This document shows, piece after piece, positions 983 through 50,900 of a stretch of 64,000 nt of DNA. The notes beneath the pieces were generated by a model that was not told the DNA's origin, made no database searches, and saw nothing but the letters and a program-made list of their open reading frames with translations. A program made the position numbers and the translations under genes. Source of the stretch: Eledone cirrhosa (taxonomy: Eukaryota); the NCBI GenBank assembly GCA_964016885.1, contig OZ024742.1, positions 78,678,001 through 78,742,000 of the forward strand, given 5' to 3'. The first letter of the stretch is position 1. Each line of letters opens with the position of its first letter.

Positions 983-3680
983 TCATCATCATCATCATCA
1001 TCATCAACGTTTAACGTCCGTGTTCCACGCTTGCATGGGTTTGGACGGGGGTAGTCCCACTTGAGGCAAGAGTGATTGTCTTGCTCGCATAGGACTGTCT
1101 GGCAGGTTTTCTACAGTTGGATGCCCTTCCTAACACCAACCACATTTACAGTGTGGGTCTGGGAGGTTTTTACCGTGTTGCCTACACGGCCACATTACAG
1201 CGTGGACTGTGTGTTTTTTTGTCGTGACACCTACACGATCTCATTTGTTTCGGCCCGGATGGCGCGGCACCAACATAACTTTACATAGGACGGGGTGGTG
1301 TGGATGGGGTGGGGGTGGTGGTGGTGGGACGGGGTGTATTTTGTTAGAGATGCCTACTGGCAAGGCGGGTCTTCTCTGTTACTGAGTACCGCCAAAGGTC
1401 TCGGTCCAGTGACATTGTCTTGGAGAGGTGTAAGTGTGTGAGGTCGGAGTTTATCAGCTCGTCCCAGGTTTTTCTAGGTCTGCCTATTCCGTGGCTACCG
1501 TCTATCTTTATTGCCCTGCACTTTGTTATACAGCTATCGACTTTCATGCGCATCACGTGTCCATACCAACGTAGCCTTCTCTCGAGTAAACAACATCTGA
1601 TCCCTCTTATCTCTAATTTTTTCCTTAGTTCGTTTATGCTTTGCCGTTCACGTATATTACTGTTACACATCCAGCGGAGCATGCAAGCTTCGTTCCTCTC
1701 TAGTCTGCGTATATCCTCTGCACACAATGCCCAGGTCTCACTGCCATGCAACATTGCTGTTCGTATGCAGGCATCGTACAACCTGCCTTTCATTTTTAGG
1801 GAGAACCCTTTAGCAGCTAATAGTGGTATAAGCTCTCTGAACTTTTTCCAACCAGTTCTGACTCTAGCTACAGTACTTTCAGAGCACCCTCCCCCACTGC
1901 TGATTTTATCGCCCAGGTAACGGAAGCTGTCCACTATTTCTATAGAACCCTCTGCGCAATTGAAAGAGCTAGTATTGTGTGGGCACTTGCTGCTACTTAT
2001 TGCACCAGAACACCGGCCACATGTAAAATCTATGTTCTTAGTTAGCTTACCTGTGATCCCACTACATCTTTTATGCACCCATACTTTGCATTTAGGACAC
2101 AAAATGGAGTTTCTACCTACGCCTTTCCTACACACCGAGCACGACCATTTCCCAGAAGGGACCGCCGCCTTGTTTTCTTTCCTACAAACTAGAACTTTGG
2201 TCTTAGCCAGGTTAATTTTAAGTCCTTTTGACTCTAGGCCGTGCTTCCATGTTTGGAATTTCTTCTCTAGCTCGGCCATTGATTCCGCTATGAGTGTCAG
2301 GTCGTCTGCGTATAGGAGTTCCCATGGGCAGCCTGTCTTGAACTCCTCTGTTATAGCCTGAAGGGCAATAATAAATAGTAGGGGGCTGAGAACAGAGCCC
2401 TGATGGACGCCAACTTTTACGCTAAACTCTTCACTATATTCGTTGTTAATTCTAACCTTGCTGACTGTTTCTTTATACATGGCTTGTATAGCCCTCACAA
2501 GCCATTCGTCAACGCCTAGTTTTCTAAGAGCCCACCAGATAATGGAGCGGGGGACTCTGTCGAAGGCTTTCTCCAAGTCGACAAAAGCTAAGTAGAGGGG
2601 TTTACCTTTAGCTAGGTACTTCTCCTGTAGTTGTCGTACTATGAAAAGAGCGTCTGTGGTACTTTTGCCTGACACAAACCCGAACTGCATTTCATCTAGG
2701 TCAATTCTCTCTCTGATTAGTTGCGCTATTACTTTTTCTGTGACCTTCATGACCTGGTCGATTAATTTAATGCCTCTATAGTTACTCCTATCTAGGGCGT
2801 CTCCTTTACCCTTATAACAGTTAACGATGATTCTGCTATGCCAGTCCTTCGGAACAACCCCATTCTGTACGACTTGGTTAACTATGCGGGTGACCATGGT
2901 GTGTCCCACCGTGCCAGATGCCTTCAGCATCTCAGCAACTATTTCCGAAGGCCCAGCCGCCTTACCTGTCTTCATATCCTTGATTGCCTTACTTATTATA
3001 CTCCCCTCGACTAACACTGCTGGTCCCTCTATTGGGTCGACATGGGGGAGACTGTCTTTCTCCCATTTATTCTCCTCATTTAGTAGCCTTTCATAGTGAC
3101 ACTTCCAAGCTGCCTTCTTATCAGTGTCGGTGATGGCAAGTATGCCATCATCGTTAAGTACACACTTCTCCCCGACAATATCACGATTTTCCTTGACGCA
3201 TTGCCTAGCAATCCTGAACACCTCACGTTTTTGGTCATCGCGTTGTAGGACATGCTTGAACTTTCTTTCCTCAGCTTCCCTTCTTGCTAAGTACACTTCT
3301 CTCCTAGCTTCCCTCCTGGCCACTTGATAGTCTACTCTACTTCCCCCATCCCGCCATACTTTCCAAGCCTGCTTTTTGGCCTTAATTGACTCCTCCACCT
3401 TACTGTTCCACCACCATGTTACTCTCCTCCTGCCTACAGGCCTGCTCCAGCCACAGACTTCGTCTGTGGCCAACAGCAGGTTTGCTTTCAGAAATTCCCA
3501 CTGTCCCTCTATATTGTCCGACTCTAAGTGTTCTTCCTTACTGTCGAAAGCATCAAGTAATATGTTTTGAAATTTATTTTTGGCTGTGGGGTCCTTTAGC
3601 TTCCATATTTTTCTCCTGAGGATAGTCCTCTTCTGCTGTCGAGTACGTCTCGACCTGACTATGAGGTCGCTAATTATCAA
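983..3680 (-). mobile_element. RTE-clade LINE, family A1, 5'-truncated, with 3' UTR and (GAT)n tail, inserted in (TA)n
   Basis: (CAT)n at 983-1007, 3' UTR to 1343, RT ORF, abrupt end at 3680; (TA)n on both sides. Confidence 0.93.
1344..3680 (-). pseudogene. Truncated LINE ORF: RT domain with embedded PHD-type finger; endonuclease domain missing
   Basis: Motifs YRGIKL, QFGF, FVDLEKAFD, GVHQGSVLSP, YADD, FRYLG, ERRLRWYGHV, GRPRKTW; uninterrupted 778 codons. Confidence 0.92.
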
Positions 3681-3760
3681 TATATATATATATATATATT
3701 AGAAAGTGAGGTTTTTTTTACAAAATGAAAAATAACCGAGGTGTCCTACACGAGTGGAAG

Positions 3761-3981
3761 TATAAAGAAAAAGAGATGAAATCGAAAATGCAACTGAAGT
3801 CTTATTTTTTTTTTAAATATATATATTTATTTGGTTCCTTTACCGGTTTCGCAGTTCTTCTGCTTTTCAAAAGGTGAGTTGAGATGGAGGGTCTGTGGTT
3901 TTTCTCACAAGGAACCAAATAAATATATATATTTTTTAAAAAAATAAGACTTCAGTTGCATTTTCGATTTCATCTCTTTTT

Positions 3982-3990
<9 letters not shown>
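3761..3990. repeat. Inverted repeat, ~80-bp arms (3761-3840 and 3909-3988) around a 68-bp spacer
   Basis: TATAAAGAAAAAGAGATGAAATCG...GGTTCCTT is reverse-complemented as AAGGAACC...CGATTTCATCTCTTTTTCTTTATA. Confidence 0.92.
3837..3874 (-). ncRNA. Degenerate type I hammerhead ribozyme
   Basis: Minus strand CCUU-UUGAAAA-GCAG-aagaa-CUGC-GAAA-CCGG-UA-AAGG: stems I and II pair, stem III is palindromic, two substitutions in CUGANGA. Confidence 0.7.
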
Positions 3991-4034
<44 letters not shown>

Positions 4035-4053
<19 letters not shown>

Positions 4054-4210
4054 TAGGTTGGTGTTAGGAAGGGCATCCAGCTGTAGAAATTAAGCCAAAA
4101 TCAGTTCTGTATGTACAAGACATGGTCACCTGACTTGGCATTGCCCACAACAAGACAACCCGCCTAACCCATGCTAGTGTGGAAGAATGCATGTAAAATG
4201 GTGATGATGA
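4035..4210 (+). mobile_element. RTE family A-type 3' UTR/tail fragment
   Basis: GGTTGGTGTTAGGAAGGGCATCCAGCTGTAGAAAT...AACCCATGCTAG...GATGATGA matches 48121-48285. Confidence 0.8.
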
Positions 4211-5392
4211 CACACACATGTATATAATTTTTTTATGCTTGCTTTTCCAGGCTGGCATGGTTGATGACCATTCAGTGAAGTACAGCTAAGAGTTGGTGTG
4301 GAAGAGAAAGACCAAGAAAAATATGGACAACAGTGGTGAAAACTGATCTCAAGAAACTGACACTGAAAAAGATGCAAAAGTAAATACACAGGTAGAGAGA
4401 TGTGGTATAAGAGAGAAAACATCTTACTCATGCTACAATTGAGAAATGAAAGTATAAATGGCAATGTCCATGAGAGGATGTAAGAAACTCTCAGGAGAGT
4501 TGGACAACAGAAGGTCTTAAGAGAAAAGGAACCTCTTTCAAGCAAATGCTTTGGCTCTCAACTTCTTACACTTAAAAAGAGTGTGGCTGCATCCAGATCA
4601 TGATTCCTTGGTACCCTTCTGCTGCCATTTAGCCATTCAGATAGCACAGACTTGTTGTGTACATAAACCATATGGAGATTTTGTTGACAGGATCTAGCTC
4701 TTTTCCATTGCCTCTGCTTCCAAACTTACATCTATGATTATATAGTCTGGTAAATAGTTTAAATGTTGTCATGCTCTTTTAGCATGTAAAGTAATCAGGA
4801 TTGATACTGGAATTAACAATGTAATCATTGGAATTTTGTCTAAGAAATTCCATCATAGATAAAAATCGATGTTAGCATGGAAATTCTGATGATTATTATG
4901 CAAATGTTGATAATAAATAATTTAAAAAATACTGTAAAATCCTTAAGCATGGTTTCAAGTGCAGCTAGGAGCCTAGCTAAATACATTAAAATAGACAGCA
5001 TAGATTAACTTATGTTAAACATTGACTCAAGGAGTTCTCTATACAGTTATTTGGCTTGCTAGAAATAGCTGCCTATCTCTTTCAAATCACACCTTTCTCC
5101 TCTAAAAATGGATGACACTTTGGACATAGTCAAAGCAGAGTCAACCCTGACCATTGTACCATTTTAGTGGCATCTACAACTACACTTTTGAATGTCTTAT
5201 TCACCTTTTTAATGAGTTGGTATATGATTTGTGGAAAATGTTGCTGCTATTTTTAGCAGGTCAAGCAATCCCATAGTGGCTTCCTTGCTGGTTGAAGTGT
5301 TTGTTTTAGTATGGTTGCTATCAGTGAATACTCAGGGTTATATTGGTTATCATGGTTATTGTTTCCGTTGTTCTTTCTGCTACTACTGTAAT

Positions 5393-5838
5393 CAACCATT
5401 CTCTACTCTCTACACACAGACATATTGCAACCATTCTCTTCTCTCTACACACAGACATATTGCAACCATTCTCTTCTCTCTACACACAGACATATTGCAA
5501 CCATTCTCTTCTCTCTACACACAGACATATTGCAACCATTCTCTTCTCTCTACACACAGACATATTGCAACCATTCTCTTCTCTCTACACACAGACATAT
5601 TGCAACCATTCTCTTCTCTCTACACGCAGACATATTGCAACCATTCTCTTCTCTCTACACACAGACATATTGCAACCATTCTCTTCTCTCTACACACAGA
5701 CATATTGCAACCTTTCGCTTCTCTCTACACGCAGACATATTGCAACCATTCTCTTCTCTCTACACACAGACATATTGAAACCATTCTCTTCCTCCTACAC
5801 ACAAATATTACAACCATTTTCTCTTGTATACACACACA
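5393..5838. repeat. 35-bp minisatellite, ~12 copies
   Basis: Unit CAACCATTCTCTTCTCTCTACACACAGACATATTG at 35-bp period; edge copies degenerate. Confidence 0.95.
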
Positions 5839-6603
5839 TAATACACACCAATCAATTCTACAAGATCAACCAGAGATCAATCATGGTAATGATTGTGATG
5901 ATTGTCACAGTAGACCAACAAGTGTGCAATAGTAGTAGTGATTCTATTGATAGTCATGGTGGTGGTGGTAGTGGTGATGGTGGTGATCGTAATGATAATG
6001 TTAGGAAGAGTGAAGCATGATGATCCTAACAACAATGAAGATGCTGCTGATGTTAGAGATGATATTCACTTCATCTCATAAAAGATATATGAAAACATAC
6101 AAATGAATAAATAAAATATAACAAAATCAAATGAAAATTTGACCAAAAGGAGACTATAATGAATTGAACTGAAAATGCAAACAAAACCAGCTGAAAAGAC
6201 AAAAGGGAAATTGGTAGAATTTCAAGAAGTCCTTCCACTGATCACATATTGAATAGCATGGTATTTATAGTAAGGAAATTGTCAGATAATGCATCAAAGT
6301 TACTCTATTCCGATTCCTCCACAAAGCCATTTATTCTGGGAAACTCTCCAAGAGAGATGGTTTATTGAAAAAGGAGGGGAAAAAAGACTAAACAAATAAA
6401 CAGAAAAACAAACAAAAACAAGAAAGAATAAAACATTAAGCACTTATTTGAGAATAGTTTACATTGGGATTACATGAGTGTGTGTGTGTGCATGCATATA
6501 TATACACACACACACACTAATATATGTATATGTGTGTGTATTTATATATATATATATATACACATACATATATGTGCTTGTGTGTGTATGTATGTATATA
6601 TGT

Positions 6604-25866: not shown

Positions 25867-28451
25867 ATCATCATCATCATCATCATCACCGTTTTACGTC
25901 CGTTCTTCCACGCTAGCATGGGTTAGACGGGTTGTCCTGTTGTGGGCAGTGTCTGGTCGGCTGACCATGCCTTGCTCATACAGGAACTGATCTGGCTTGA
26001 TTTCTACAGCTGGATGCCCTTCCTAACACCAACCTCATTTACAGTGAGTGCTGGGTGCTTTTTCGTGGCGCCTACACGTCCACTTTACAGTGTGGGCTGG
26101 GTGCTTTTTTGCCGTGGCACCTCCACGACCACCTTGCGGTGGGGGGGGGGGGGGCATATTGTTTATATGCTTCAGCATGTACCCATGGGAGGTCGGGTAC
26201 CCTGTATTACTGCGTGACGCCAGAAGTCACGGTCGTGTGTCATTGACTTTGAGAGGTGTAGTTGGGTAAGGTCGGCTTTTATCACCTCATCCCAAGTCAT
26301 CTTGGGTCTCCCCACTCCGCGGTTTCCATCAACTTCTAGTGCTCTGCACCTTTTTATGCAGCTGTCATCCTTCATACGCATCACATGTCCATACCAGCGT
26401 AACCGCCTCTCCTGCACGCAGCATTTGATTCCTCTTATGCTCAGTCTCTCTCTCAATTCATTTATGCTTTGTCGTTCACGTATATTACTGTTACACATCC
26501 ATCGGAGCATGCAGGCTTCGTTTCTCTCTAATCTACGTAAGTCTTCCACCTTCAGCGCCCAGGTCTCACTACCATGCAACATCGCTGTTCGGATACACGC
26601 ATCATACAGTCTGCCTTTCATTCTGAGGGAGAAGCCTTTTGCAGCTAGCAGTGGTAGTAGTTCCCTAAACTTCTTCCATCCCGTTCTTACCCTAGTTATT
26701 GTACTTTCTGAGCACCCACCTCCGTTGCTAATTCGGTCACCTAGGTAGCAGAAGCTGTCTACTGTTTCTACAGGGCCCTCCCAGAGATTGGTGGTACTTG
26801 TTTCCTGTGGCTGTTTGCTTGCTGTTTCAGCACAGCTGCTGCATGTGAATCCTACATTCTTAATTAAGCTTCCTGAGATCCCGCTACATCTCTTGTGTAC
26901 CCATTGTTTGCATTTGGGGCAAAGAATGGAGTTCCTACCTACACCTTTCCTACATACTGAGCAAGGCCATTTCCCTGAGGGGATCTGGGTTCTGTTTTCT
27001 CGTCTACTTATAAGGACCTTAGTCTTTGTCATGTTGACTTTGAGGCCCTTTCTCTCTAGTCCCTGCTTCCAGGTTTGGAATTTATTCTCTAGTTCTACCA
27101 TAGATTCAGCTATGAGTGCGAGGTCATCAGCATACAGGAGTTCCCATGGGCATCCGGTCTTAAACTCCTCCGTTATTGCCTGCAGGACTATGATGAACAG
27201 GAGAGGGCTAAGAACAGAGCCCTGGTGGACCCCAACCTGTACGCTAAATTCCTCGCTATACTCATTGCCAATCCTAACTTTGCTGACTGCTCCCCTATAC
27301 ATGGCTTGTACCGCTTTCACAAGCCATTCATCTACTCCTAGTTTTCTAAGAGCCCACCAGATTACTGCACGTGGAACTCTGTCAAAGGCTTTCTCAAGGT
27401 CGACAAATGCCAAGTAGAGTGGCTTACTTTTAGCTAGGTACTTTTCCTGTAATTGCCTCACAAGGAAGAGCGCATCAGTGGTGCCTTTCCCTGGTACAAA
27501 CCCAAATTGCATCTCGTCTATATTCACCCGGTCCCTAATCAGCTGTGCTATAACTCTTTCTGTTACTTTCATGACCTGGTCCATCAACTTTATACCTCTA
27601 TAGTTTCCTCTATCTAGTGCATCGCCTTTACCTTTGTAGCAGTTGACAATGATGCTACTGCACCAATCTTTTGGTATGGCCCCCTCTAGTATTACCTGGT
27701 TAACAATACGTGTGGTTATAGTGTGACCTACAGACCCAGATGCCTTCAGCATCTCGGCAGCTATACCCGATGGACCGGTTGCCTTCCCTATCTTCATATC
27801 TCTGATTGCCTTACTTACTACGCTGCCGCTGACTTGTACTGCTGGTCCCTCTATAGGGTCTACGTGGGGTAGGGTCTCTTCTTCCCATGCATTCTCCTCA
27901 TTTAGTAATCTATCATAATGACTCTTCCATGCATCTTTCTTCTCAGCACTTGTGAGGGCAAGCTCACCTTTATCATTCCGGATACACTTCTCTCCAATGA
28001 CATCACAACTATCTCTGACACACTGCCTCGCAATCTTGAATACCTCCTGTTTCTGGTCCTCACGTTGTAAAACATGCTTGAATTTTCTATCCTCTGCTTC
28101 CCTCCTAGCTAAGTATACTTGTCGCCTAGCTTCCCTCTTGGTCTCTATGTAATGTACCCTGCTCCCCCCGTTCTTCCATTCTTTCCATGCCTGTCTCTTG
28201 GCCTTGACTGCTTCATCTACCTTATTGTTCCACCACCAAGTCACTCTCCTCCTGCTTGAGGTCTTACTCCAGCCACAAACCTCATCCGTCGCCTCTAGTA
28301 AGTTATTTTTTAGGAACTCCCAGTTCTCTTCTACGTTAAATGTCTCTATCTGTTCTTCTTTACTGTCGTAGGCGTTGAGTAAAATATCTTTAAATCTGTT
28401 ACTGGTTGAGGGGACTTTCAGCTTCCAGATCTTTCTTCTCCAGGTTGGCCT
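25867..28451 (-). mobile_element. RTE family A2, 5'-truncated, near-identical to 45707-48285
   Basis: Open RT frame 26172-28451; protein differs from the full-length copy at about two visible residues (IET/IVT, KKF/KKL). Confidence 0.95.
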
Positions 28452-29061
28452 ACATCCGCTTTTCCCTGCTTGCAATATACATATATATATATATATATAT
28501 ATATGTGATGGATGTACATATATATATAACACCTAAGTATTACTGTGTATGCATATATCATCATCATCATCGTTTAACGTCCATTTCCCAAGCAAGCATG
28601 TAGTAAACGATATATGTGTGTTTGTGTGTGTGTGTGTGTGTGTGTTTGTTTTTTGGAATAATTATACATGTATTTGAAGGTATTGATGTGTGTATGTAAC
28701 CATCTGTGTGTGTGAATATTTAGATCTAGTTATACATAAGACACATTACATAAATCTACATCTGCCAACATATACGTGGGAAATGGAAACGTGTTCTTTC
28801 TTCTGGAAAATAGAAAATTAAATGTATGTGAACGTGTATGTAGATATGTGAATGTATACATAGCGATATGATGTATATGTAGGTATGTGAATGCATATAT
28901 AGGTATATCGATTTATATGTAGGTATGTAAATGTGTATATAGGTATGTGAATGTACATGCATACATGCATCAGAGTTTAAATTAAAGGCAAGGCAGCTAA
29001 GCTGCATTTACATATATTACCATTTATATATTTAGGTGGATGCAGGATAGGACAGGATAGG

Positions 29062-40876: not shown

Positions 40877-43800
40877 ATTGTATCTCTCTCAGTTATTTAC
40901 CATGCGACCCTCAGTTCCTACCCCCCCCCCTCTCTCTATGCACTTCTTTAAGGCTTACTACCCTGTCTTTAACCTAATTCATTCAATCTGAAAATATTGA
41001 AGAGATAAGACACTTTCCCATTCTTCTCTGCTAAAATGTACCACTAGAGCTGATTCAAATTTTCCCAGCCAGCCATCCACCTAATCTACGAAGGTATTTT
41101 AGCCTACATATTGTCGTTAATATTATGATGTTCCCTGCTGTATTAGCGTTAAATTTTCCCTGCTGTATTAGCGATAAATTTTCGAGGGTTTCTCTTAGTA
41201 GCTTTTTTCATGTCGTTAATATTATGATGTTCCCTGCTGTATTAGCGTTAAATTTTCCCTGCTGTATTAGCGATAAATTTTCGAGGGTTTCTCTTAGTAG
41301 CTTTTTTCATGACGTTATTATTGTTAATTTTACTGATGTAGTATTAACTTATTAACTTGGATATTTACCATGCGGTATTCTAATCCTATTGTATCTCTCT
41401 CAGTTATTTACCATGCGACCCTCAGTTCCTACCCCCCCCTCTCTCTATGCACTTCTTTAAGGCTTACTACCCTGTCTTTAACCTAATTCATTCAATCTGA
41501 AAATATTGAAGAGATAAGACACTTTCCCATTCTTCTCTGCTAAAATGTACCACTAGAGCTGATTCAAATTTTCCCAGCCAGCCATCCACCTAATCTACGA
41601 AGGTATTTTAGCCTACATATTGTCGTTAATATTATGATGTTCCCTGCTGTATTAGCGTTAAATTTTCCCTGCTGTATTAGCGATAAATTTTCGAGGGTTT
41701 CTCTTAGTAGCTTTTTTCATGTCGTTAATATTATGATGTTCCCTGCTGTATTAGCGTTAAATTTTCCCTGCTGTATTAGCGATAAATTTTCGAGGGTTTC
41801 TCTTAGTAGCTTTTTTCATGTCGTTAATATTATGATGTTCCCTGCTGTATTAGCGTTAAATTTTCCCTGCTGTATTAGCGATAAATTTTCGAGGGTTTCT
41901 CTTAGTAGCTTTTTTCATGTCGTTAATATTATGATGTTCCCTGCTGTATTAGCGTTAAATTTTCCCTGCTGTATTAGCGATAAATTTTCGAGGGTTTCTC
42001 TTAGTAGCTTTTTTCATGTCGTTAATATTATGATGTTCCCTGCTGTATTAGCGTTAAATTTTCCCTGCTGTATTAGCGATAAATTTTCGAGGGTTTCTCT
42101 TAGTAGCTTTTTTCATGACGTTATTATTGTTAATTTTACTGATGTAGTATTAACTTATTAACTTGGATATTTACCATGCGGTATTCTAATCCTATTGTAT
42201 CTCTCTCAGTTATTTACCATGCGACCCTCAGTTCCTACCCCCCCCCTCTCTCTATGCACTTCTTTAAGGCTTACTACCCTGTCTTTAACCTAATTCATTC
42301 AATCTGAAAATATTGAAGAGATAAGACACTTTCCCATTCTTCTCTGCTAAAATGTACCACTAGAGCTGATTCAAATTTTCCCAGCCAGCCATCCACCTAA
42401 TCTACGAAGGTATTTTAGCCTACATATTGTCGTTAATATTATGATGTTCCCTGCTGTATTAGCGTTAAATTTTCCCTGCTGTATTAGCGATAAATTTTCG
42501 AGGGTTTCTCATAGTAGCTTTTTTCATGTCGTTAATATTATGATGTTCCCTGCTGTATTAGCGTTAAATTTTCCCTGCTGTATTAGCGATAAATTTTCGA
42601 GGGTTTCTCTTAGTAGCTTTTTTCATGTCGTTAATATTATGATGTTCCCTGCTGTATTAGCGTTAAATTTTCCCTGCTGTATTAGCGATAAATTTTCGAG
42701 GGTTTCTCTTAGTAGCTTTTTTCATGTCGTTAATATTATGATGTTCCCTGCTGTATTAGCGTTAAATTTTCCCTGCTGTATTAGCGATAAATTTTCGAGG
42801 GTTTCTCTTAGTAGCTTTTTTCATGACGTTATTATTGTTAATTTTACTGATGTAGTATTAACTTATTAACTTGGATATTTACCATGCGGTATTCTAATCC
42901 TATTGTATCTCTCTCAGTTATTTACCATGCGACCCTCAGTTCCTACCCCCCCCCTCTCTCTATGCACTTCTTTAAGGCTTACTACCCTGTCTTTAACCTA
43001 ATTCATTCAATCTGAAAATATTGAAGAGATAAGACACTTTCCCATTCTTCTCTGCTAAAATGTACCACTAGAGCTGATTCAAATTTTCCCAGCCAGCCAT
43101 CCACCTAATCTACGAAGGTATTTTAGCCTACATATTGTCGTTAATATTATGATGTTCCCTGCTGTATTAGCGTTAAATTTTCCCTGCTGTATTAGCGATA
43201 AATTTTCGAGGGTTTCTCTTAGTAGCTTTTTTCATGTCGTTAATATTATGATGTTCCCTGCTGTATTAGCGTTAAATTTTCCCTGCTGTATTAGCGATAA
43301 ATTTTCGAGGGTTTCTCTTAGTAGCTTTTTTCATGACGTTATTATTGTTAATTTTACTGATGTAGTATTAACTTATTAACTTGGATATTTACCATGCGGT
43401 ATTCTAATCCTATTGTATCTCTCTCAGTTATTTACCATGCGACCCTCAGTTCCTACCCCCCCCCCTCTCTCTATGCACTTCTTTAAGGCTTACTACCCTG
43501 TCTTTAACCTAATTCATTCAATCTGAAAATATTGAAGAGATAAGACACTTTCCCATTCTTCTCTGCTAAAATGTACCACTAGAGCTGATTCAAATTTTCC
43601 CAGCCAGCCATCCACCTAATCTACGAAGGTATTTTAGCCTACATATTGTCGTTAATATTATGATGTTCCCTGCTGTATTAGCGTTAAATTTTCCCTGCTG
43701 TATTAGCGATAAATTTTCGAGGGTTTCTCATAGTAGCTTTTTTCATGTCGTTAATATTATGATGTTCCCTGCTGTATTAGCGTTAAATTTTCCCTGCTGT

Positions 43801-44623
43801 ATTAGCGATAAATTTTCGAGGGTTTCTCTTAGTAGCTTTTTTCATGTCGTTAATATTATGATGTTCCCTGCTGTATTAGCGTTAAATTTTCCCTGCTGTA
43901 TTAGCGATAAATTTTCGAGGGTTTCTCTTAGTAGCTTTTTTCATGTCGTTAATATTATGATGTTCCCTGCTGTATTAGCGTTAAATTTTCCCTGCTGTAT
44001 TAGCGATAAATTTTCGAGGGTTTCTCTTAGTAGCTTTTTTCATGACGTTATTATTGTTAATTTTACTGATGTAGTATTAACTTATTAACTTGGATATTTA
44101 CCATGCGGTATTCTAATCCTATTGTATCTCTCTCAGTTATTTACCATGCGACCCTCAGTTCCTACCCCCCCTCTCTCTATGCACTTCTTTAAGGCTTACT
44201 ACCCTGTCTTTAACCTAATTCATTCAATCTGAAAATATTGAAGAGATAAGACACTTTCCCATTCTTCTCTGCTAAAATGTACCACTAGAGCTGATTCAAA
44301 TTTTCCCAGCCAGCCATCCACCTAATCTACGAAGGTATTTTAGCCTACATATTGTCGTTAATATTATGATGTTCCCTGCTGTATTAGCGTTAAATTTTCC
44401 CTGCTGTATTAGCGATAAATTTTCGAGGGTTTCTCTTAGTAGCTTTTTTCATGTCGTTAATATTATGATGTTCCCTGCTGTATTAGCGTTAAATTTTCCC
44501 TGCTGTATTAGCGATAAATTTTCGAGGGTTTCTCTTAGTAGCTTTCTTCATGACGTTATTATTGTTAATTTTACTGATGTAGTATTAACTTGGATATTTA
44601 CCATGCGACCCTCAGTTCCTACC
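40877..44623 (+). repeat. Nested tandem array: six monomers (starts 40877, 41388, 42194, 42902, 43412, 44121), each ~312 bp plus n x 99 bp, n = 2,5,4,2,4,2
   Basis: First five monomer lengths 511, 806, 708, 510, 709; the 99-mer itself holds a 25-bp direct repeat (TTCCCTGCTGTATTAGCGWTAAATT); copies almost identical. Confidence 0.96.
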
Positions 44624-44866
44624 TCACAATGTCCCTCCCCCCCACCCCCACACACCACCATAGTCTATTCGACCAATCAAACCTAGCATGCCATTTCCAC
44701 TGCTGCTGCTGCTACTACCTGCCTAACTAACTCTCTCCTCCTCTGGCGCATCCCAACACACCCTGCCATTACCCCACCACCACTGTCCTTCTAGCCCTCA
44801 ATTTTCCCACCGTTATGGATGGATGAGCTGGGAATACACGAGCAACTCTGAATCAATAGATGAAAT

Positions 44867-47800
44867 ATGAATCTGCGAGCTACCAAGCACCCACGTGAAG
44901 CGCCAACCCAGAGACCCTCCCCTACGAGTGTCGACAAATGCCCAAAACTCCGAGTTGGTACCATCAATGTAGGCTCAATGAAAGGAAGAGCAGGAGAAAT
45001 CGTAGAAATGCTAGAGCGAAAGGAAGTTGATGTATGCTGTGTGCAAGAGACTAGATGGAGAGGAGGGTCTGCTAGAGTCCTTGTAGGAAAAAGCCAGTGC
45101 TACAAATTTTTCTGGGTGGGAAATGACGATGGGATGGGTGGTGTAGGTATACTATTAGCTGACAAGTGGGTAGATAAAGTAATCTCAGTGTACAGGGTAA
45201 ATGCAAGAATCATTAAACTCAGACTAGTCCTGAATAAGACAATTACCACAATAATATCAGCTTACGCACCCCAATCGGGGCTGCCAGACGAACTTAAGGA
45301 TAGGTTTTACGAGTCCCTAATACACACTACTGCTCTAACAGACGACAAGGACTTCCTAATCATTGCAGGAGATTTTAACGGACACATAGGTAAACACTGC
45401 GACGGCTTCAATAGAGTACATGGAGGCCATGGAGTTGGCACAAGAAATGAGGAAGGATTCAGACTTCTAGAATTCTGCGACGCCAATGACATGTCGATAT
45501 GTAACACAAACTTTAAAAAACCCGACAACCACCTGATCACCTATAGATCAGGGGAGCACTCTAGTCAGTTAGATTTTATCCTCATCAGAGGACGTGACAG
45601 ATGGACGGTCGTAAACACAAAAGCCTTCCCTAGTGAGGAATGTACATCCCAACATAGCTTAGTTGTCAGCGACCTCACGGTCAGAACTAGACGAGCCCTG
45701 AAACAGAGGCCAACCTGGAGAAGAAAGATCTGGAAGCTGAAAGTCCCCTCAACCAGTAACAGATTTAAAGATATTTTACTCAACGCCTACGACAGTAAAG
45801 AAGAACAGATAGTGACATTTAACGTAGAAGAGAACTGGGAGTTCCTAAAAAATAACTTACTAGAGGCGACGGATGAGGTTTGTGGCTGGAGTAAGACCTC
45901 AAGCAGGAGGAGAGTGACTTGGTGGTGGAACAATAAGGTAGATGAAGCAGTCAAGGCCAAGAGACAGGCATGGAAAGAATGGAAGAACGGGGGGAGCAGG
46001 GTACATTACATAGAGACCAAGAGGGAAGCTAGGCGACAAGTATACTTAGCTAGGAGGGAAGCAGAGGATAGAAAATTCAAGCATGTTTTACAACGTGAGG
46101 ACCAGAAACAGGAGGTATTCAAGATTGCGAGGCAGTGTGTCAGAGATAGTTGTGATGTCATTGGAGAGAAGTGTATCCGGAATGATAAAGGTGAGCTTGC
46201 CCTCACAAGTGCTGAGAAGAAAGATGCATGGAAGAGTCATTATGATAGATTACTAAATGAGGAGAATGCATGGGAAGAAGAGACCCTACCCCACGTAGAC
46301 CCTATAGAGGGACCAGCAGTACAAGTCAGCGGCAGCGTAGTAAGTAAGGCAATCAGAGATATGAAGATAGGGAAGGCAACCGGTCCATCGGGTATAGCTG
46401 CCGAGATGCTGAAGGCATCTGGGTCTGTAGGTCACACTATAACCACACGTATCGTTAACCAGGTAATACTAGAGGGGGCCATACCAAAAGATTGGTGCAG
46501 TAGCATCATTGTCAACTGCTACAAAGGTAAAGGCGATGCACTAGATAGAGGAAACTATAGAGGTATAAAGTTGATGGACCAGGTCATGAAAGTAACAGAA
46601 AGAGTTATAGCACAGCTGATTAGGGACCGGGTGAATATAGACGAGATGCAATTTGGGTTTGTACCAGGGAAAGGCACCACTGATGCGCTCTTCCTTGTGA
46701 GGCAATTACAGGAAAAGTACCTAGCTAAAAGTAAGCCACTCTACTTGGCATTTGTCGACCTTGAGAAAGCCTTTGACAGAGTTCCACGTGCAGTAATCTG
46801 GTGGGCTCTTAGAAAACTAGGAGTAGATGAATGGCTTGTGAAAGCGGTACAAGCCATGTATAGGGGAGCAGTCAGCAAAGTTAGGATTGGCAATGAGTAT
46901 AGCGAGGAATTTAGCGTACAGGTTGGGGTCCACCAGGGCTCTGTTCTTAGCCCTCTCCTGTTCATCATAGTCCTGCAGGCAATAACGGAGGAGTTTAAGA
47001 CCGGATGCCCATGGGAACTCCTGTATGCTGATGACCTCGCACTCATAGCTGAATCTATGGTAGAACTAGAGAATAAATTCCAAACCTGGAAGCAGGGACT
47101 AGAGAGAAAGGGCCTCAAAGTCAACATGACAAAGACTAAGGTCCTTATAAGTAGACGAGAAAACAGAACCCAGATCCCCTCAGGGAAATGGCCTTGCTCA
47201 GTATGTAGGAAAGGTGTAGGTAGGAACTCCATTCTTTGCCCCAAATGCAAACAATGGGTACACAAGAGATGTAGCGGGATCTCAGGAAGCTTAATTAAGA
47301 ATGTAGGATTCACATGCAGCAGCTGTGCTGAAACAGCAAGCAAACAGCCACAGGAAACAAGTACCACCAATCTCTGGGAGGGCCCTGTAGAAACAGTAGA
47401 CAGCTTCTGCTACCTAGGTGACCGAATTAGCAACGGAGGTGGGTGCTCAGAAAGTACAATAACTAGGGTAAGAACGGGATGGAAGAAGTTAAGGGAACTA
47501 CTACCACTGCTAGCTGCAAAAGGCTTCTCCCTCAGAATGAAAGGCAGACTGTATGATGCGTGTATCCGAACAGCGATGTTGCATGGTAGTGAGACCTGGG
47601 CGCTGAAGGTGGAAGACTTACGTAGATTAGAGAGAAACGAAGCCTGCATGCTCCGATGGATGTGTAACAGTAATATACGTGAACGACAAAGCATAAATGA
47701 ATTGAGAGAGAGACTGAGCATAAGAGGAATCAAATGCTGCGTGCAGGAGAGGCGGTTACGCTGGTATGGACATGTGATGCGTATGAAGGATGACAGCTGC

Positions 47801-47986
47801 ATAAAAAGGTGCAGAGCACTAGAAGTTGATGGAAACCGCGGAGTGGGGAGACCCAAGATGACTTGGGATGAGGTGATAAAAGCCGACCTTACCCAACTAC
47901 ACCTCTCAAAGTCAATGACACACGACCGTGACTTCTGGCGTCACGCAGTAATACAGGGTACCCGACCTCCCATGGGTACATGCTGA
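44867..47986 (+). CDS. LINE polyprotein: apurinic-like endonuclease + reverse transcriptase with embedded PHD-type zinc finger (1039 aa)
   Basis: APE motifs TINV, VQET, SAYAPQ, GDFNGH, LDFIL, QH; RT motifs QFGF, DLEKAFD, QGSVLSP, YADD (47024-47035), YLG; C4HC3 at 47189-47326. Confidence 0.96.
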   Translation: MNLRATKHPREAPTQRPSPTSVDKCPKLRVGTINVGSMKGRAGEIVEMLERKEVDVCCVQETRWRGGSARVLVGKSQCYKFFWVGNDDGMGGVGILLADKWVDKVISVYRVNARIIKLRLVLNKTITTIISAYAPQSGLPDELKDRFYESLIHTTALTDDKDFLIIAGDFNGHIGKHCDGFNRVHGGHGVGTRNEEGFRLLEFCDANDMSICNTNFKKPDNHLITYRSGEHSSQLDFILIRGRDRWTVVNTKAFPSEECTSQHSLVVSDLTVRTRRALKQRPTWRRKIWKLKVPSTSNRFKDILLNAYDSKEEQIVTFNVEENWEFLKNNLLEATDEVCGWSKTSSRRRVTWWWNNKVDEAVKAKRQAWKEWKNGGSRVHYIETKREARRQVYLARREAEDRKFKHVLQREDQKQEVFKIARQCVRDSCDVIGEKCIRNDKGELALTSAEKKDAWKSHYDRLLNEENAWEEETLPHVDPIEGPAVQVSGSVVSKAIRDMKIGKATGPSGIAAEMLKASGSVGHTITTRIVNQVILEGAIPKDWCSSIIVNCYKGKGDALDRGNYRGIKLMDQVMKVTERVIAQLIRDRVNIDEMQFGFVPGKGTTDALFLVRQLQEKYLAKSKPLYLAFVDLEKAFDRVPRAVIWWALRKLGVDEWLVKAVQAMYRGAVSKVRIGNEYSEEFSVQVGVHQGSVLSPLLFIIVLQAITEEFKTGCPWELLYADDLALIAESMVELENKFQTWKQGLERKGLKVNMTKTKVLISRRENRTQIPSGKWPCSVCRKGVGRNSILCPKCKQWVHKRCSGISGSLIKNVGFTCSSCAETASKQPQETSTTNLWEGPVETVDSFCYLGDRISNGGGCSESTITRVRTGWKKLRELLPLLAAKGFSLRMKGRLYDACIRTAMLHGSETWALKVEDLRRLERNEACMLRWMCNSNIRERQSINELRERLSIRGIKCCVQERRLRWYGHVMRMKDDSCIKRCRALEVDGNRGVGRPKMTWDEVIKADLTQLHLSKSMTHDRDFWRHAVIQGTRPPMGTC

Positions 47987-50900
47987 AGCATATAAACAAT
48001 ATGCCCCCCCCCCCCACCGCAAGGTGGTCGTGGAGGTGCCACGGCAAAAAAGCACCCAGCCCACACTGTAAAGTGGACGTGTAGGCGCCACGAAAAAGCA
48101 CCCAGCACTCACTGTAAATGAGGTTGGTGTTAGGAAGGGCATCCAGCTGTAGAAATCAAGCCAGATCAGTTCCTGTATGAGCAAGGCATGGTCAGCCGAC
48201 CAGACACTGCCCACAACAGGACAACCCGTCTAACCCATGCTAGCGTGGAAGAACGGACGTAAAACGGTGATGATGATGATGATGAGATCTGGCCACAATA
48301 AATTTGTTCCAGAAATAGAAAGGGTGAGATTTGAACTCAGATCTCAAAACACATACCTCAAAGCATTTATTCTATTCAATATTCTAATGACTCTGCCAAC
48401 TGGCCATCCTAATGGCAAAATGGTGCCATTATTTTTAATATCAAACCATAAAAGAGGAAGCTCAGACAACAAATAAATGAAATAAGACTGGCAGAAAAGG
48501 AAGAGTGAGTTGGATTTTTCTATTCATGCTATTTATTTTGTTTTTTTCATATATTACTGGTGTCATCATTATTTTAAATGCATTATTGTCGGATGTTGTT
48601 GGTACTGTTACCATAGGATTCTATGCAATTGTTGTTGTCATTCAAAAGTTTGTGTTTTGCCATTGTAGTTGTTGTATCCATTCATTTTCATTATAACTGA
48701 TGTTGCTGCTGCTGTTGTTGATGTATTTATTACTATAGCTGCTGGTGTTGTTGAAGTTATCTTCATCATCATTGTCTCTGCACTTGTTACACTGTTGTTG
48801 TTATAATTACCAATTGTTGTTGTTGTTGTATTGTAGGCACCATTGTTAGTGATGTCTTTTCACATTGAAAAAGATGCAGCCTCTAGTTTCTATCATTATG
48901 ATATTATAATTGCTTTTGTTGTTGCCATCACAGTAGCATCTATTGTTGTTATTTTTATTGTTGTTGTTTGAGAAGTAGGAATGTGTGTGTGTAGTGGAAA
49001 GAAGAAACTTGTCATCAGTGATAAAGATGTAATTATAATAATGATGTGTCATTTTTGTTTGCTTGCTTGCTTCCTTAGCTTTGTTTTTCATACAAAATAC
49101 ACCTGGTGTTCTCTCTGCCAATCCACCTCTCATTCTCATACAAAAGATGGACAACATAGGAACACAAACTCATACACCATACACAGAGAATTACTATTCT
49201 TCTGAGAATACATCAAATGTCTAGAGAACATCTTTAGAAAATATCACTAAAGAAGAAACATATACTTGCAACACTACAAAAAAAGCATTAGTAAAAATAA
49301 AGAAAAAAAACAAGCAAATGCATACATGCACACATATACACACATGTATACATACATGCATTGCGTACATACATATATACATACACTACATATATAAATA
49401 CATACATAGTACGACAACACTGAGTGTTCTCTTGGGAATAGAAGGCTATTAGACTTAGTGTAATGAATATTATTCATCCTTTATGATTTTGCTATCAACT
49501 AGCCTATTTAAGAATCTTCCTTTTTTCATAATCCTGATGAGTCCCATTATGCATTGTGTTGTTGAGTATGCCATTGAAATTTCTATCTCATGTGGTTTAT
49601 CAATATAACTGAACTCATGTTTCTTCAAGCTATATCTAAAAACTGACAATTGAAACAAAAGTCTCTTTGCAATTTTACAACGTTTCTGTTGCTTCACAAT
49701 TAAATAGGCTGGACTATCCTAATGAACCTATTAACAACTAAGAGAATAAAACTGTTCAAACTAAATATTTTTTTTACTATATTTCTAATAAAATCCACTG
49801 TCCATGATCTTCAATTAATCTTGAAATTAATCAAGAATTTTCAAAGATTTAGTAAAATAACTTTTCAGTTAAGCTGGTACGTGGAGGTTATTACATAATG
49901 TTATGATGAAAGGGGTTTTGATAAATATCATCATCATCCATCATCTAGGTGTGCTTATTGCACAGATAGTCATAACTCATCTTTCCAATCTGTTCGGTCT
50001 GCCATTGCTTGTGGTAGGTCTTCTCAGGCATACTCAGAATCCTTACACAGTTGCTTTATGCAGGTTCAATGTAGTCTACCAACATTTGTGTACCCATGCT
50101 TCGGTTGCTAAAGAAGAATGTTGCTGCTGAAATAATCCTTTGCTCTCCAGCAATGTCTAGTGAAGAACAAGATTCGTTGATAAATATAAACATTTTAAAT
50201 AAACAGTTTGTATTTTAAAACCAGGATTGGTTTTAGACTATGTGATATCTTGGCCAGAGTCACTGTGCAGTACCTCCATTGGTCATACATTTTCTCAATG
50301 GCCTATGGGTGCCTTTAGCAGAATCTGCTTTATAATAAGTAAACCCGAAATTTCTGTCAGGCTCTCAATTTTGTGCCATTATGTAAATCATTTGGGTTGG
50401 TGACAATTTTTTTTTTCTTTTTACATTTTGATAAATAGTCTACGGCTACTATCCTCTTTCTCCAAGGGATTTGGAGGTGTGGGGGTGAAAATGGACAGTT
50501 TGGCTCACAGAGAACCCAAAAATCATGGCAAACAATTGAACTAAACAATATGTTGAATGTTATAGGGACGAAGAAAGGAATTCGATTGACAAGACCCCAG
50601 ACCTCATTCGCTTGCAGAGTTTGTCTCGTCAAATCGGACAAAGGAAATAATGTTTCCATTGGTCTTTCCATTGCTGATACTATCTCCCAGAAATAAAGTG
50701 TCTTACTTAAGGACGTAATGCATAACCCAGTCTGAAGATCAAACTCACAACTTCATGATTGTGAATCCAATTCTCTAAGCACTGAGCCACACACCTTCAC
50801 TTCAATGTTATATTTCCTGCTCTTGGATTGCAAATGCATAACCTTCATATGATGTATCATGATGTATTTATGTGTATATACAAGTATTACAACAACTATC

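What the first reader, a model, noticed from the sequence alone, without database searches (positions are those of the whole stretch)
3761..3990. Inverted repeat begins exactly at the predicted hammerhead cleavage site
Seen: the minus-strand hammerhead would cut ...CCGGUA/AAGGAACCAAAU. The inverted copy at 3909 starts precisely AAGGAACCAAAT, and the preceding base does not match (C versus A). Established: Penelope-like elements carry hammerheads and often show inverted terminal segments. Inference: the inverted arm is a cDNA copy of the self-cleaved 3' product. If so, it is a genomic fossil showing the ribozyme cut in vivo and defined the template end.
Basis: partly seen in the sequence, partly recalled or inferred. 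Interest (0 to 1): 0.72.

Follow-up and report, generated by a model that had tools for sequence, protein, structure and literature searches.

The report
Penelope-type stub with inverted arm
This is a short copy of a very abundant, likely Penelope-type jumping gene whose inverted arm does start exactly at the predicted cut site of its small self-cutting RNA, but the few other inverted copies seen break elsewhere, so it likely does not prove that the RNA cuts itself in living cells.

Summary
Observation confirmed: the arms 3761-3840 and 3909-3988 are 77 of 80 nt complementary, and the right arm starts on the first base after the predicted GUA cut of a minus-strand minimal hammerhead. The core UUGAAAA is not decayed. 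It is the published U3-A8 variant, and no family-majority change is listed in it. The unit is a 289-nt head-to-head insertion between (TA)n tracts with a 61-nt one-sided tail, the known Penelope-like layout, from a very high-copy family.

The 'fossil of cleavage' reading is not borne out at family level. None of 4 directly listed inversion joints in other copies ends at the cut (3843, 3867, 3871, 3873), and depth shows no step there, whereas the tail boundary does. The sample is small, so a minor cleavage route stays open (about 30% for this copy).

Unexpected: the recurring breakpoint is the other one, 3908 (3 of 4 joints), which is the unit's only GTRAG splice-donor motif. This scan noted the same arm-at-cut-site pattern before in other genomes and judged it a mild hot spot.

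The parts
3700..3908 (-). Long copy of the element, 209 nt, no ORF; member of a very high-copy family
   Evidence: 7128 contig records of run X1 laid on it, all 30 bins covered in all 4 runs; no second copy in the window
3837..3874 (-). Minimal type I hammerhead with palindromic helix III (predicted to work only as a dimer)
   Evidence: Sequence, numbering and dimer fold -22.5 kcal/mol with both stem II hairpins kept
3864..3870 (-). Core UUGAAAA, the U3-A8 covariant of CUGANGA
   Evidence: variant described in PMC4209133; no variant at 3861-3872 among the 40 best-supported rows (45 weaker rows not shown)
3840..3841 (-). Predicted cleavage site (after GUA, between 3841 and 3840)
   Evidence: predicted from the fold, cleavage not tested
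3909..3988 (+). Inverted, 5'-shortened second copy (mirror of 3840-3761), starting at the predicted cut
3700..3760 (-). 61-nt tail present on the long copy only; 3761 is a family-wide 3' end followed by (TA)n
   Evidence: table 7: loose end at 3761 with a TA-rich consensus is the top row of X1 (50 contigs) and is listed in X6 (2); depth rises 25% (X1) and 37% (X6) across it
3680..3699 (.). (AT)10 tract at the long copy's 3' end
   Evidence: Sequence
3989..4050 (.). (TA)n tract at the inverted arm's 3' end
   Evidence: Sequence
3746..3908 (-). Possible 163-nt spliceosomal intron: GTGAG at 3908, pyrimidine tract then TAG/G at 3746; splicing untested
   Evidence: the only GTRAG and the only pyrimidine-tract + YAG/G match in the sense element
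1344..3679 (-). Left flank: 5'-truncated LINE copy (RT and PHD domains), unrelated to the element
   Evidence: Pfam RVT_1 E 1.9e-32; 75% identical to the longer copy at 44864-47986; 'RTE-like' is my recalled label
4049..4210 (+). Right flank: fragment of the repeat that follows the 3' end of those LINE ORFs
   Evidence: 86.5% identity to 48115-48276 and 26041-25880

Best explanation
The locus is a head-to-head pair of short copies of a very abundant hammerhead-bearing element between two (TA)n tracts, likely inserted by a Penelope-type reverse transcriptase/endonuclease acting in trans, and the inverted arm's start at the predicted cut site is likely one draw from a scatter of stop points over the ribozyme rather than a dedicated cleavage end. 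Inferred mechanism: the endonuclease nicks both strands of a (TA)n target. One nick primes cDNA at the family's outer 3' start (3700) and runs to the family's recurrent 5' end (3908). The other primes at the inner start (3761, where the RNA reads UAUA and can pair with the TA primer) and stops, or is trimmed, within the folded ribozyme region. The two cDNA 3' ends are then joined, here without microhomology. Shown: geometry, tail, family abundance, core state, positions of other joints. Inferred: every enzymatic step, and the Penelope-type parent (no ORF is linked).
For: Layout matches the described Penelope-like insertion: inverted 5'-truncated copy at the 5' end, one-sided tail, (TA)n target (PMC8557442 passages; PMC3846280 passages). 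Two RT start sites bounding the tail and nicking of both strands of AT-rich DNA were shown in vitro (PMC11167929); opposite-strand joints are 3843/3904, 3867/3908, 3871/3908 and 3873/3908, so 0 of 4 have the short arm at 3840; none of the 5 further joints with filler letters (kind not printed) has 3840 either. Depth across the cut: X1 1.414M, 1.358M, 1.298M, then up to 1.551M; X6 rises 2129 to 2679; X21 plus-mates rise 1211 to 1283. Table 6 lists no place where many molecules begin or end. 3840 is not among the 24 loose-end rows shown, whereas the tail boundary 3761 is the top row for X1. Hammerhead mutants inserted normally in vitro and uncut RNA was the dominant template. Minimal hammerheads cleave weakly, and not as monomers (PMC4209133).
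Against: The match is exact to the base with zero inward microhomology, which is what run-off from a cut end would give. The joint sample is tiny: the 95% upper bound on the share at the cut is 53% for n=4 and 31% for n=8. Contigs drop rare variants, and this copy's own junction was not listed. Even a 1-5% cleavage route would make this copy 41-89% likely to be one of its products (assumed spans). X21 minus-mates fall 440, 419, 338 across 3840-3853 and X4 falls 69 to 65 (part of the X21 fall is the 3843/3904 joint, 60 reads). 238 loose-end rows were not shown. The family sequence upstream of 3908 is unknown, so outward microhomology is untested.
Confidence: 0.5

Rival explanations
1. One reading: two RNAs dimerise through the ACCGGU palindrome, one is cut after GUA, and its 3' product, which still carries both RT start sites, is copied from 3761 until the enzyme runs off the cut end at 3840. 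That cDNA is joined blunt to the long cDNA.
For: Exact register and blunt joint. The U3-A8 core is the family norm rather than decay. The dimer fold keeps stem II and pairs the palindrome. A Penelope-like hammerhead cleaves in vitro when its protein is present. R2 elements are a precedent for a ribozyme cut setting a genomic 5' junction (PMC3774820, start of abstract only).
Against: 0 of 4 other direct joints and no depth step at 3840. In PAc the cut is 26 nt past the start codon while +20 was the shortest active 5'-truncated template (the next tile position was not found in the supplements). No RNA-seq ends at the cut in that study. 2 of the 3 other 3908 joints are also blunt by the window's sequence, so bluntness does not single out 3840.
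Confidence: 0.3
2. Fold-back self-priming: one cDNA reaches 3908, its 3' end loops back or jumps onto itself and is extended on DNA from 3840 to 3761, where TATA pairs with the (TA)n target. The arm is then a DNA-templated copy and says nothing about RNA ends.
For: Self-priming was proposed for palindromic Penelope junctions (PMC3846280). The deepest direct contig joint, 3873/3908 (depth 81, 2 contigs, also 20 reads in X21), has a 5-nt fold-back match in the window's sequence. Both arms carry the same minority letter at 3797, where 71% of X1 depth differs, as one template would give.
Against: No pairing is available at 3840 (0 nt). The fold-back hairpin is no more stable than shuffles (z 0.27 and 0.31). 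The tool printed 0 shared letters for the 3873 joint. One active source copy also explains shared letters.
Confidence: 0.15
3. The inversion is an assembly chimera or a later local rearrangement, not part of the insertion.
For: The 3840/3908 junction was not listed in the 4 runs laid; the best run holds 65% of the sampled words of 3400-4400.
Against: The arm ends exactly at the family's inner 3' end and is followed by its own (TA)n tract; the arms differ at 3 bases; joints of the same geometry occur in other copies.
Confidence: 0.05

Closest known systems
Endonuclease-bearing Penelope-like element insertions (Penelope/Poseidon, Neptune, Hydra clades; PMC8557442, PMC3846280)
   Same: Head-to-head inverted 5'-truncated copy, one-sided tail, hammerhead near the 3' end (cut 140 nt from the outer end; Hydra-clade motifs lie about 100-200 nt from theirs), (TA)n target
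   Different: No ORF or tandem pLTR here; tail 61 nt against the usual 30-40 nt; hammerhead differs from every row of that paper's File S2, including Hydra-1_oBim; clade unassigned
Minimal hammerheads of metazoan Penelope-like elements, U3-A8 variant of the Schistosoma Cercyon family (PMC4209133)
   Same: U3-A8 core, short helix I (4 bp), G10.1-C11.1, palindromic helix III region; mostly single dispersed motifs; opposite-strand pairs known
   Different: Helix II is 4 bp, not 7-8, and has no extra base between 9 and 10.1; activity of this family untested
PAc (Poseidon of Anolis carolinensis), in vitro mechanism (PMC11167929)
   Same: Two RT start sites bounding a tail, AT-rich target, hammerhead about 80-90 nt upstream of the inner start
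   Different: PAc is autonomous with a C3-G8 core; there, cleavage was dispensable and left no RNA-seq ends
Non-LTR retrozymes (PMC7229834; bioRxiv 10.64898/2026.07.22.740005)
   Same: Short non-coding unit with a type I hammerhead, low GC, likely mobilised by Penelope-like elements
   Different: Retrozymes are head-to-tail tandem arrays with canonical hammerheads and circular RNAs; this is a dispersed head-to-head unit with a minimal hammerhead
R2 retrotransposon HDV-like ribozyme (PMC3774820, start of abstract; PMC6765202 section 11)
   Same: [quoted passage not shown]
   Different: In R2 it is the rule and was shown; here the cut site is not the dominant 5' end

Membership tests
Penelope-like element (EN+) | ORF with telomerase-like RT and GIY-YIG endonuclease | tested here: not met
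   No ORF in the 289-nt unit; no ORF of 120 aa or more lies within 3700-3988. The parent could not be sought: no genome held. So this is a non-coding derivative or 3' stub that works like a PLE, not a shown autonomous member.
Penelope-like element (EN+) | Inverted 5'-truncated copy joined at the 5' end | tested here: met
   same geometry in 4 other joints
Penelope-like element (EN+) | Tail extension on one end only | tested here: met
   3700-3760; 3761 is a family-wide end; longer than the usual 30-40 nt
Penelope-like element (EN+) | Hammerhead motif in the terminal repeat | tested here: met
   3874-3837
Penelope-like element (EN+) | AT-rich or (TA)n target | tested here: met
   Both flanks; TA-rich loose ends at 3761 and 3901 in other copies
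Penelope-like element (EN+) | Partial-tandem pLTR arrangement | tested here: not met
   No direct repeat of the unit nearby or in the window
Minimal type I hammerhead (min-HHR) | Conserved core with a 3-8 Watson-Crick pair, G12 A13 A14, U16.1 H17 | tested here: met
   U3-A8, G12 A13 A14, U16.1 A17; variant published
Minimal type I hammerhead (min-HHR) | Helices I and II and a palindromic helix III region | tested here: met
   4 bp + 4 bp + ACCGGU. The family's majority letters at 3874-3875 shorten the direct helix I to 3 bp.
Minimal type I hammerhead (min-HHR) | Self-cleavage as a dimer | not testable with these tools
   Needs a bench assay
Rfam hammerhead families | Score at or above the gathering threshold | tested here: not met
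   0 matches in the window
Non-LTR retrozyme | Head-to-tail tandem units, each with a hammerhead | tested here: not met
   Single hammerhead, head-to-head layout; arrays elsewhere in the genome not testable
Ribozyme-defined 5' end (R2-like role) | Genomic 5' ends pile up at the cleavage site | tested here: inconclusive
   0 of 4 direct joints and no depth step: not the main end; a minor route is not excluded

The most novel reading that the evidence does not exclude
Both sides of this junction are RNA-processing ends. The long copy starts at the G of a 5' splice site (3908, GTGAG), the recurring 5' end in this family, because the template is a splicing intermediate (lariat intron still joined to its downstream exon). 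The short arm starts at the hammerhead cut. Penelope-type retrotransposition would then draw on spliceosome-cut and ribozyme-cut RNAs, which would explain intron retention and give the hammerhead an in vivo role, both readable from genomic breakpoint histograms.
Probability: 0.08. Interest if true: 0.75.

Novelty: new member of a known kind. Interest (0 to 1): 0.3.

Why it matters
Whether the hammerheads of Penelope-like elements cut in vivo and shape the template is an open question (PMC8557442 and PMC4209133 passages say so; PMC11167929 found no sign of it). One junction cannot answer it. A family this abundant could, since a breakpoint histogram from an assembly would show or exclude a single-base peak at the cut. 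The same histogram would test the unexpected pile-up at the splice-donor motif at 3908. As it stands the locus is an ordinary truncated insertion.

Tried and rejected
Whole-genome analysis: no genome held, so the decisive histogram could not be made. Rfam: 0 matches. Family copies in the window: none beyond the arm. Collection scans with short hammerhead motifs: 0 matches in metagenome contigs, 0 in viral contigs, 8 in a second metagenome scan; all 8 align only over 20-25 nt around the motif and were dropped as chance. Sequencing runs: no RNA holder listed; 4 of the 23 listed runs were laid, and only on 3700-3908. Folding: neither the monomer hammerhead, the whole element (z 0.76) nor the cDNA fold-back beats shuffles. 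Identity with published Naiad, Chlamys or Hydra consensus sequences: three short motifs of the element gave 2, 0 and 0 hits in the PMC8557442 supplement, and both hits are in unrelated context (line breaks in that file could hide a match). 'Decayed core' rejected. Literature on genomic breakpoints at the hammerhead cut or on lariat templates: searches listed no paper whose title or abstract start reports it, and none of the passages I read does; most subscription papers are not held, PMC5785218 was not available, and bioRxiv supplements are closed. Host not identified; the 'octopus' searches rested on my recalled guess from the repeat content. Earlier-scan look-ups by sequence and place were empty.

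Full report
Observation. The inverted repeat is real: arms 3761-3840 and 3909-3988, 80 nt, 68 nt apart. A base-by-base check gives 77 of 80 pairs, with three adjacent mismatches at a T/A homopolymer boundary; pairing ends at 3841/3908 and 3760/3989. The minus strand holds a minimal type I hammerhead at 3874-3837. Its predicted cut falls between 3841 and 3840, and 3909 mirrors 3840, so the arm begins on the first base of the predicted 3' product with no inward microhomology. Rfam does not detect it and the monomer folds no better than shuffles, which fits a motif without a stable helix III; the modelled dimer pairs the palindrome and keeps both stem II hairpins.

The core. It is instead a compensatory U3-A8 pair, reported for about 1,300 motifs of the Schistosoma Cercyon family (PMC4209133, parts 1-2 of 4 read). 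In one search the 40 best-supported variant rows include every high-share difference between this copy and the family (3757, 3773, 3797, 3874, 3875) and none at 3861-3872; 45 weaker rows were not shown. So U3-A8 is the family norm.

What the unit is. Read on the minus strand, the unit is: (TA)n, the arm in antisense, the junction, a 209-nt copy (3908-3700), then (TA)n. It lies between a 5'-truncated LINE (RVT_1; 75% identical to the copy at 44864-47986) and a fragment of the repeat that follows those LINE ORFs. No genome was held, so family data come from one lay of 4 of 23 listed runs on 3700-3908 at 80% likeness. The family is very abundant: 7128 contig records in X1, with summed depth about 1-2 million against 5-16 for the single contigs listed (a rough sign, not a copy number). 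Position 3761 is a family-wide 3' end followed by TA-rich sequence (50 contigs in X1, the top loose-end row; depth up 25% in X1 and 37% in X6). So 3700-3760 is a one-sided tail. An inverted 5'-truncated copy, a one-sided tail, a (TA)n target and a hammerhead near the 3' end are the described marks of Penelope-like insertions (PMC8557442, passages and supplement part 2; PMC3846280, passages). No ORF is linked, so membership is inferred from layout.

One search lists 8 joints: 4 skips and 4 opposite-strand joints (3843/3904, 3867/3908, 3871/3908, 3873/3908). None has the short arm at 3840; the nearest is 3 nt upstream. Five more joints with filler letters (3830/3815, 3892/3814, 3898/3867, 3905/3853, 3907/3877; kind not printed) also miss it. 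Depth shows no consistent step at the cut: X1 1.414M, 1.358M, 1.298M, 1.348M, 1.499M, 1.551M over 3833-3874; X6 rises; X21 plus-mates rise, while X21 minus-mates fall 440, 419, 338 and X4 falls 69 to 65. No place with many starts or ends was listed, and 3840 is absent from the 24 loose-end rows shown (238 not shown). The tail boundary serves as a positive control, since it does show. The limits are real: contigs drop rare joints, this copy's own junction was not listed, and the 95% upper bound on the share at the cut is 53% for n=4 and 31% for n=8. The cut site is therefore not the dominant end, but a minor route is open. If such a route made even 1-5% of arms, this copy would be 41-89% likely to come from it (assumed spans of 70-150 nt). 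What this copy cannot do is show that the route exists, because it was picked out for the coincidence.

Published evidence. In the purified PAc system (PMC11167929, parts 1-2 of 4 read, supplements searched by term) the protein nicks both strands of AT-rich DNA and starts at two internal sites that bound the tail. The hammerhead cleaves only with protein, catalytic mutants insert normally, uncut RNA is the main template, and no RNA-seq reads began or ended at the cut. The shortest active 5'-truncated template began at +20, just upstream of the cut at +26. Minimal hammerheads showed no monomer activity and low dimer activity. R2 is the precedent for a ribozyme-set 5' junction (PMC3774820, search listing and start of abstract only; PMC6765202, section 11 part 1 and passages). 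Retrozymes differ in being head-to-tail arrays (PMC7229834, passages; bioRxiv 10.64898/2026.07.22.740005, part 1 of 5 and passages; its supplements are closed). PMC6962438 (passages) added nothing.

Mechanism. Most likely (0.5) two target nicks primed two cDNAs, one from 3700 to 3908 and one from 3761 that stopped or was trimmed within the folded ribozyme region, and their 3' ends were joined. Stalling at the structure would by itself favour ends near 3837-3874, where all 4 direct joints fall (inference). Run-off from a self-cut RNA remains possible for this copy (0.3). DNA fold-back (0.15) fits the 3873/3908 joint, which has a 5-nt match in the window's sequence, but has no pairing at 3840. 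An artefact is unlikely (0.05).

An unexpected lead. The recurring breakpoint is the other side. Three of the 4 direct joints use 3908 exactly, and other long-side ends lie at 3901, 3903, 3904, 3905, 3906 and 3907 (tables 5, 5c, 7, 8). Because 3908 was also the last base of the stretch I laid, an edge effect cannot be excluded, although no filler row reaching 3908 was listed, as copies running past it should give. Position 3908 begins the only GTRAG in the sense element (chance about 0.0008 at a fixed place, noticed after the fact), and a pyrimidine tract with TAG/G ends at 3746. That would be a 163-nt intron holding the hammerhead. Introns in Penelope terminal repeats are known (PMC2377424, passages). 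The 3843 arm also begins on a GTRA. Splicing is untested, and a transcription start at 3908 is the plainer reading.

Earlier notes of this scan (AI notes on other genomes, unchecked) describe the same arm-at-cut pattern as a mild hot spot, with the main break at the ribozyme's upstream edge, and a U3:A8 subfamily. My small sample agrees: 3 of 4 short arms end at 3867-3873. These notes are not independent support.

Verdict. Observation confirmed; interpretation partly supported; new member of a known kind; interest 0.3.

Noticed in passing
window 3908 and 3746 (minus strand): The long copy's 5' end is the element's only GTRAG donor motif and recurs in 3 of 4 direct inversion joints; a pyrimidine tract with TAG/G at 3746 would close a 163-nt intron around the hammerhead. 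An edge effect of the laid stretch is possible.
   Followed up: partly
window 3874-3878: The family splits here: about half of X1 depth and about three quarters of X21 reads carry other letters at 3874-3875, which shortens the direct helix I to 3 bp and removes the 5-nt fold-back match to the 3908 end.
   Followed up: partly
window 3812-3814 and 3935-3937: The only differences between the arms are one 3-nt shift of a T/A boundary that makes the right arm more palindromic; the same letters vary in the family.
   Followed up: no
window 3706-3710 and 3904-3908: The two ends of the long copy share a 5-nt inverted match, which pairs in the centroid fold; likely chance.
   Followed up: no
window 1344-3698, 26172-28532, 44864-47986: Near-intact LINE ORFs of 784, 786 and 1040 aa; the first has RT and PHD-finger hits, and the last two look nearly identical, suggesting recent activity.
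   Followed up: partly
window 5288-5913: 35-bp tandem repeat, about 13 or more copies.
   Followed up: no
window 41544-44686: Four near-identical blocks of a tandem repeat with a 33-codon period, seen as repeated ORFs.
   Followed up: no
run X4 (organism B): The same element family is present at low depth in a second organism label, 12 records laid, including a copy ending at 3901 next to (TA)n.
   Followed up: no
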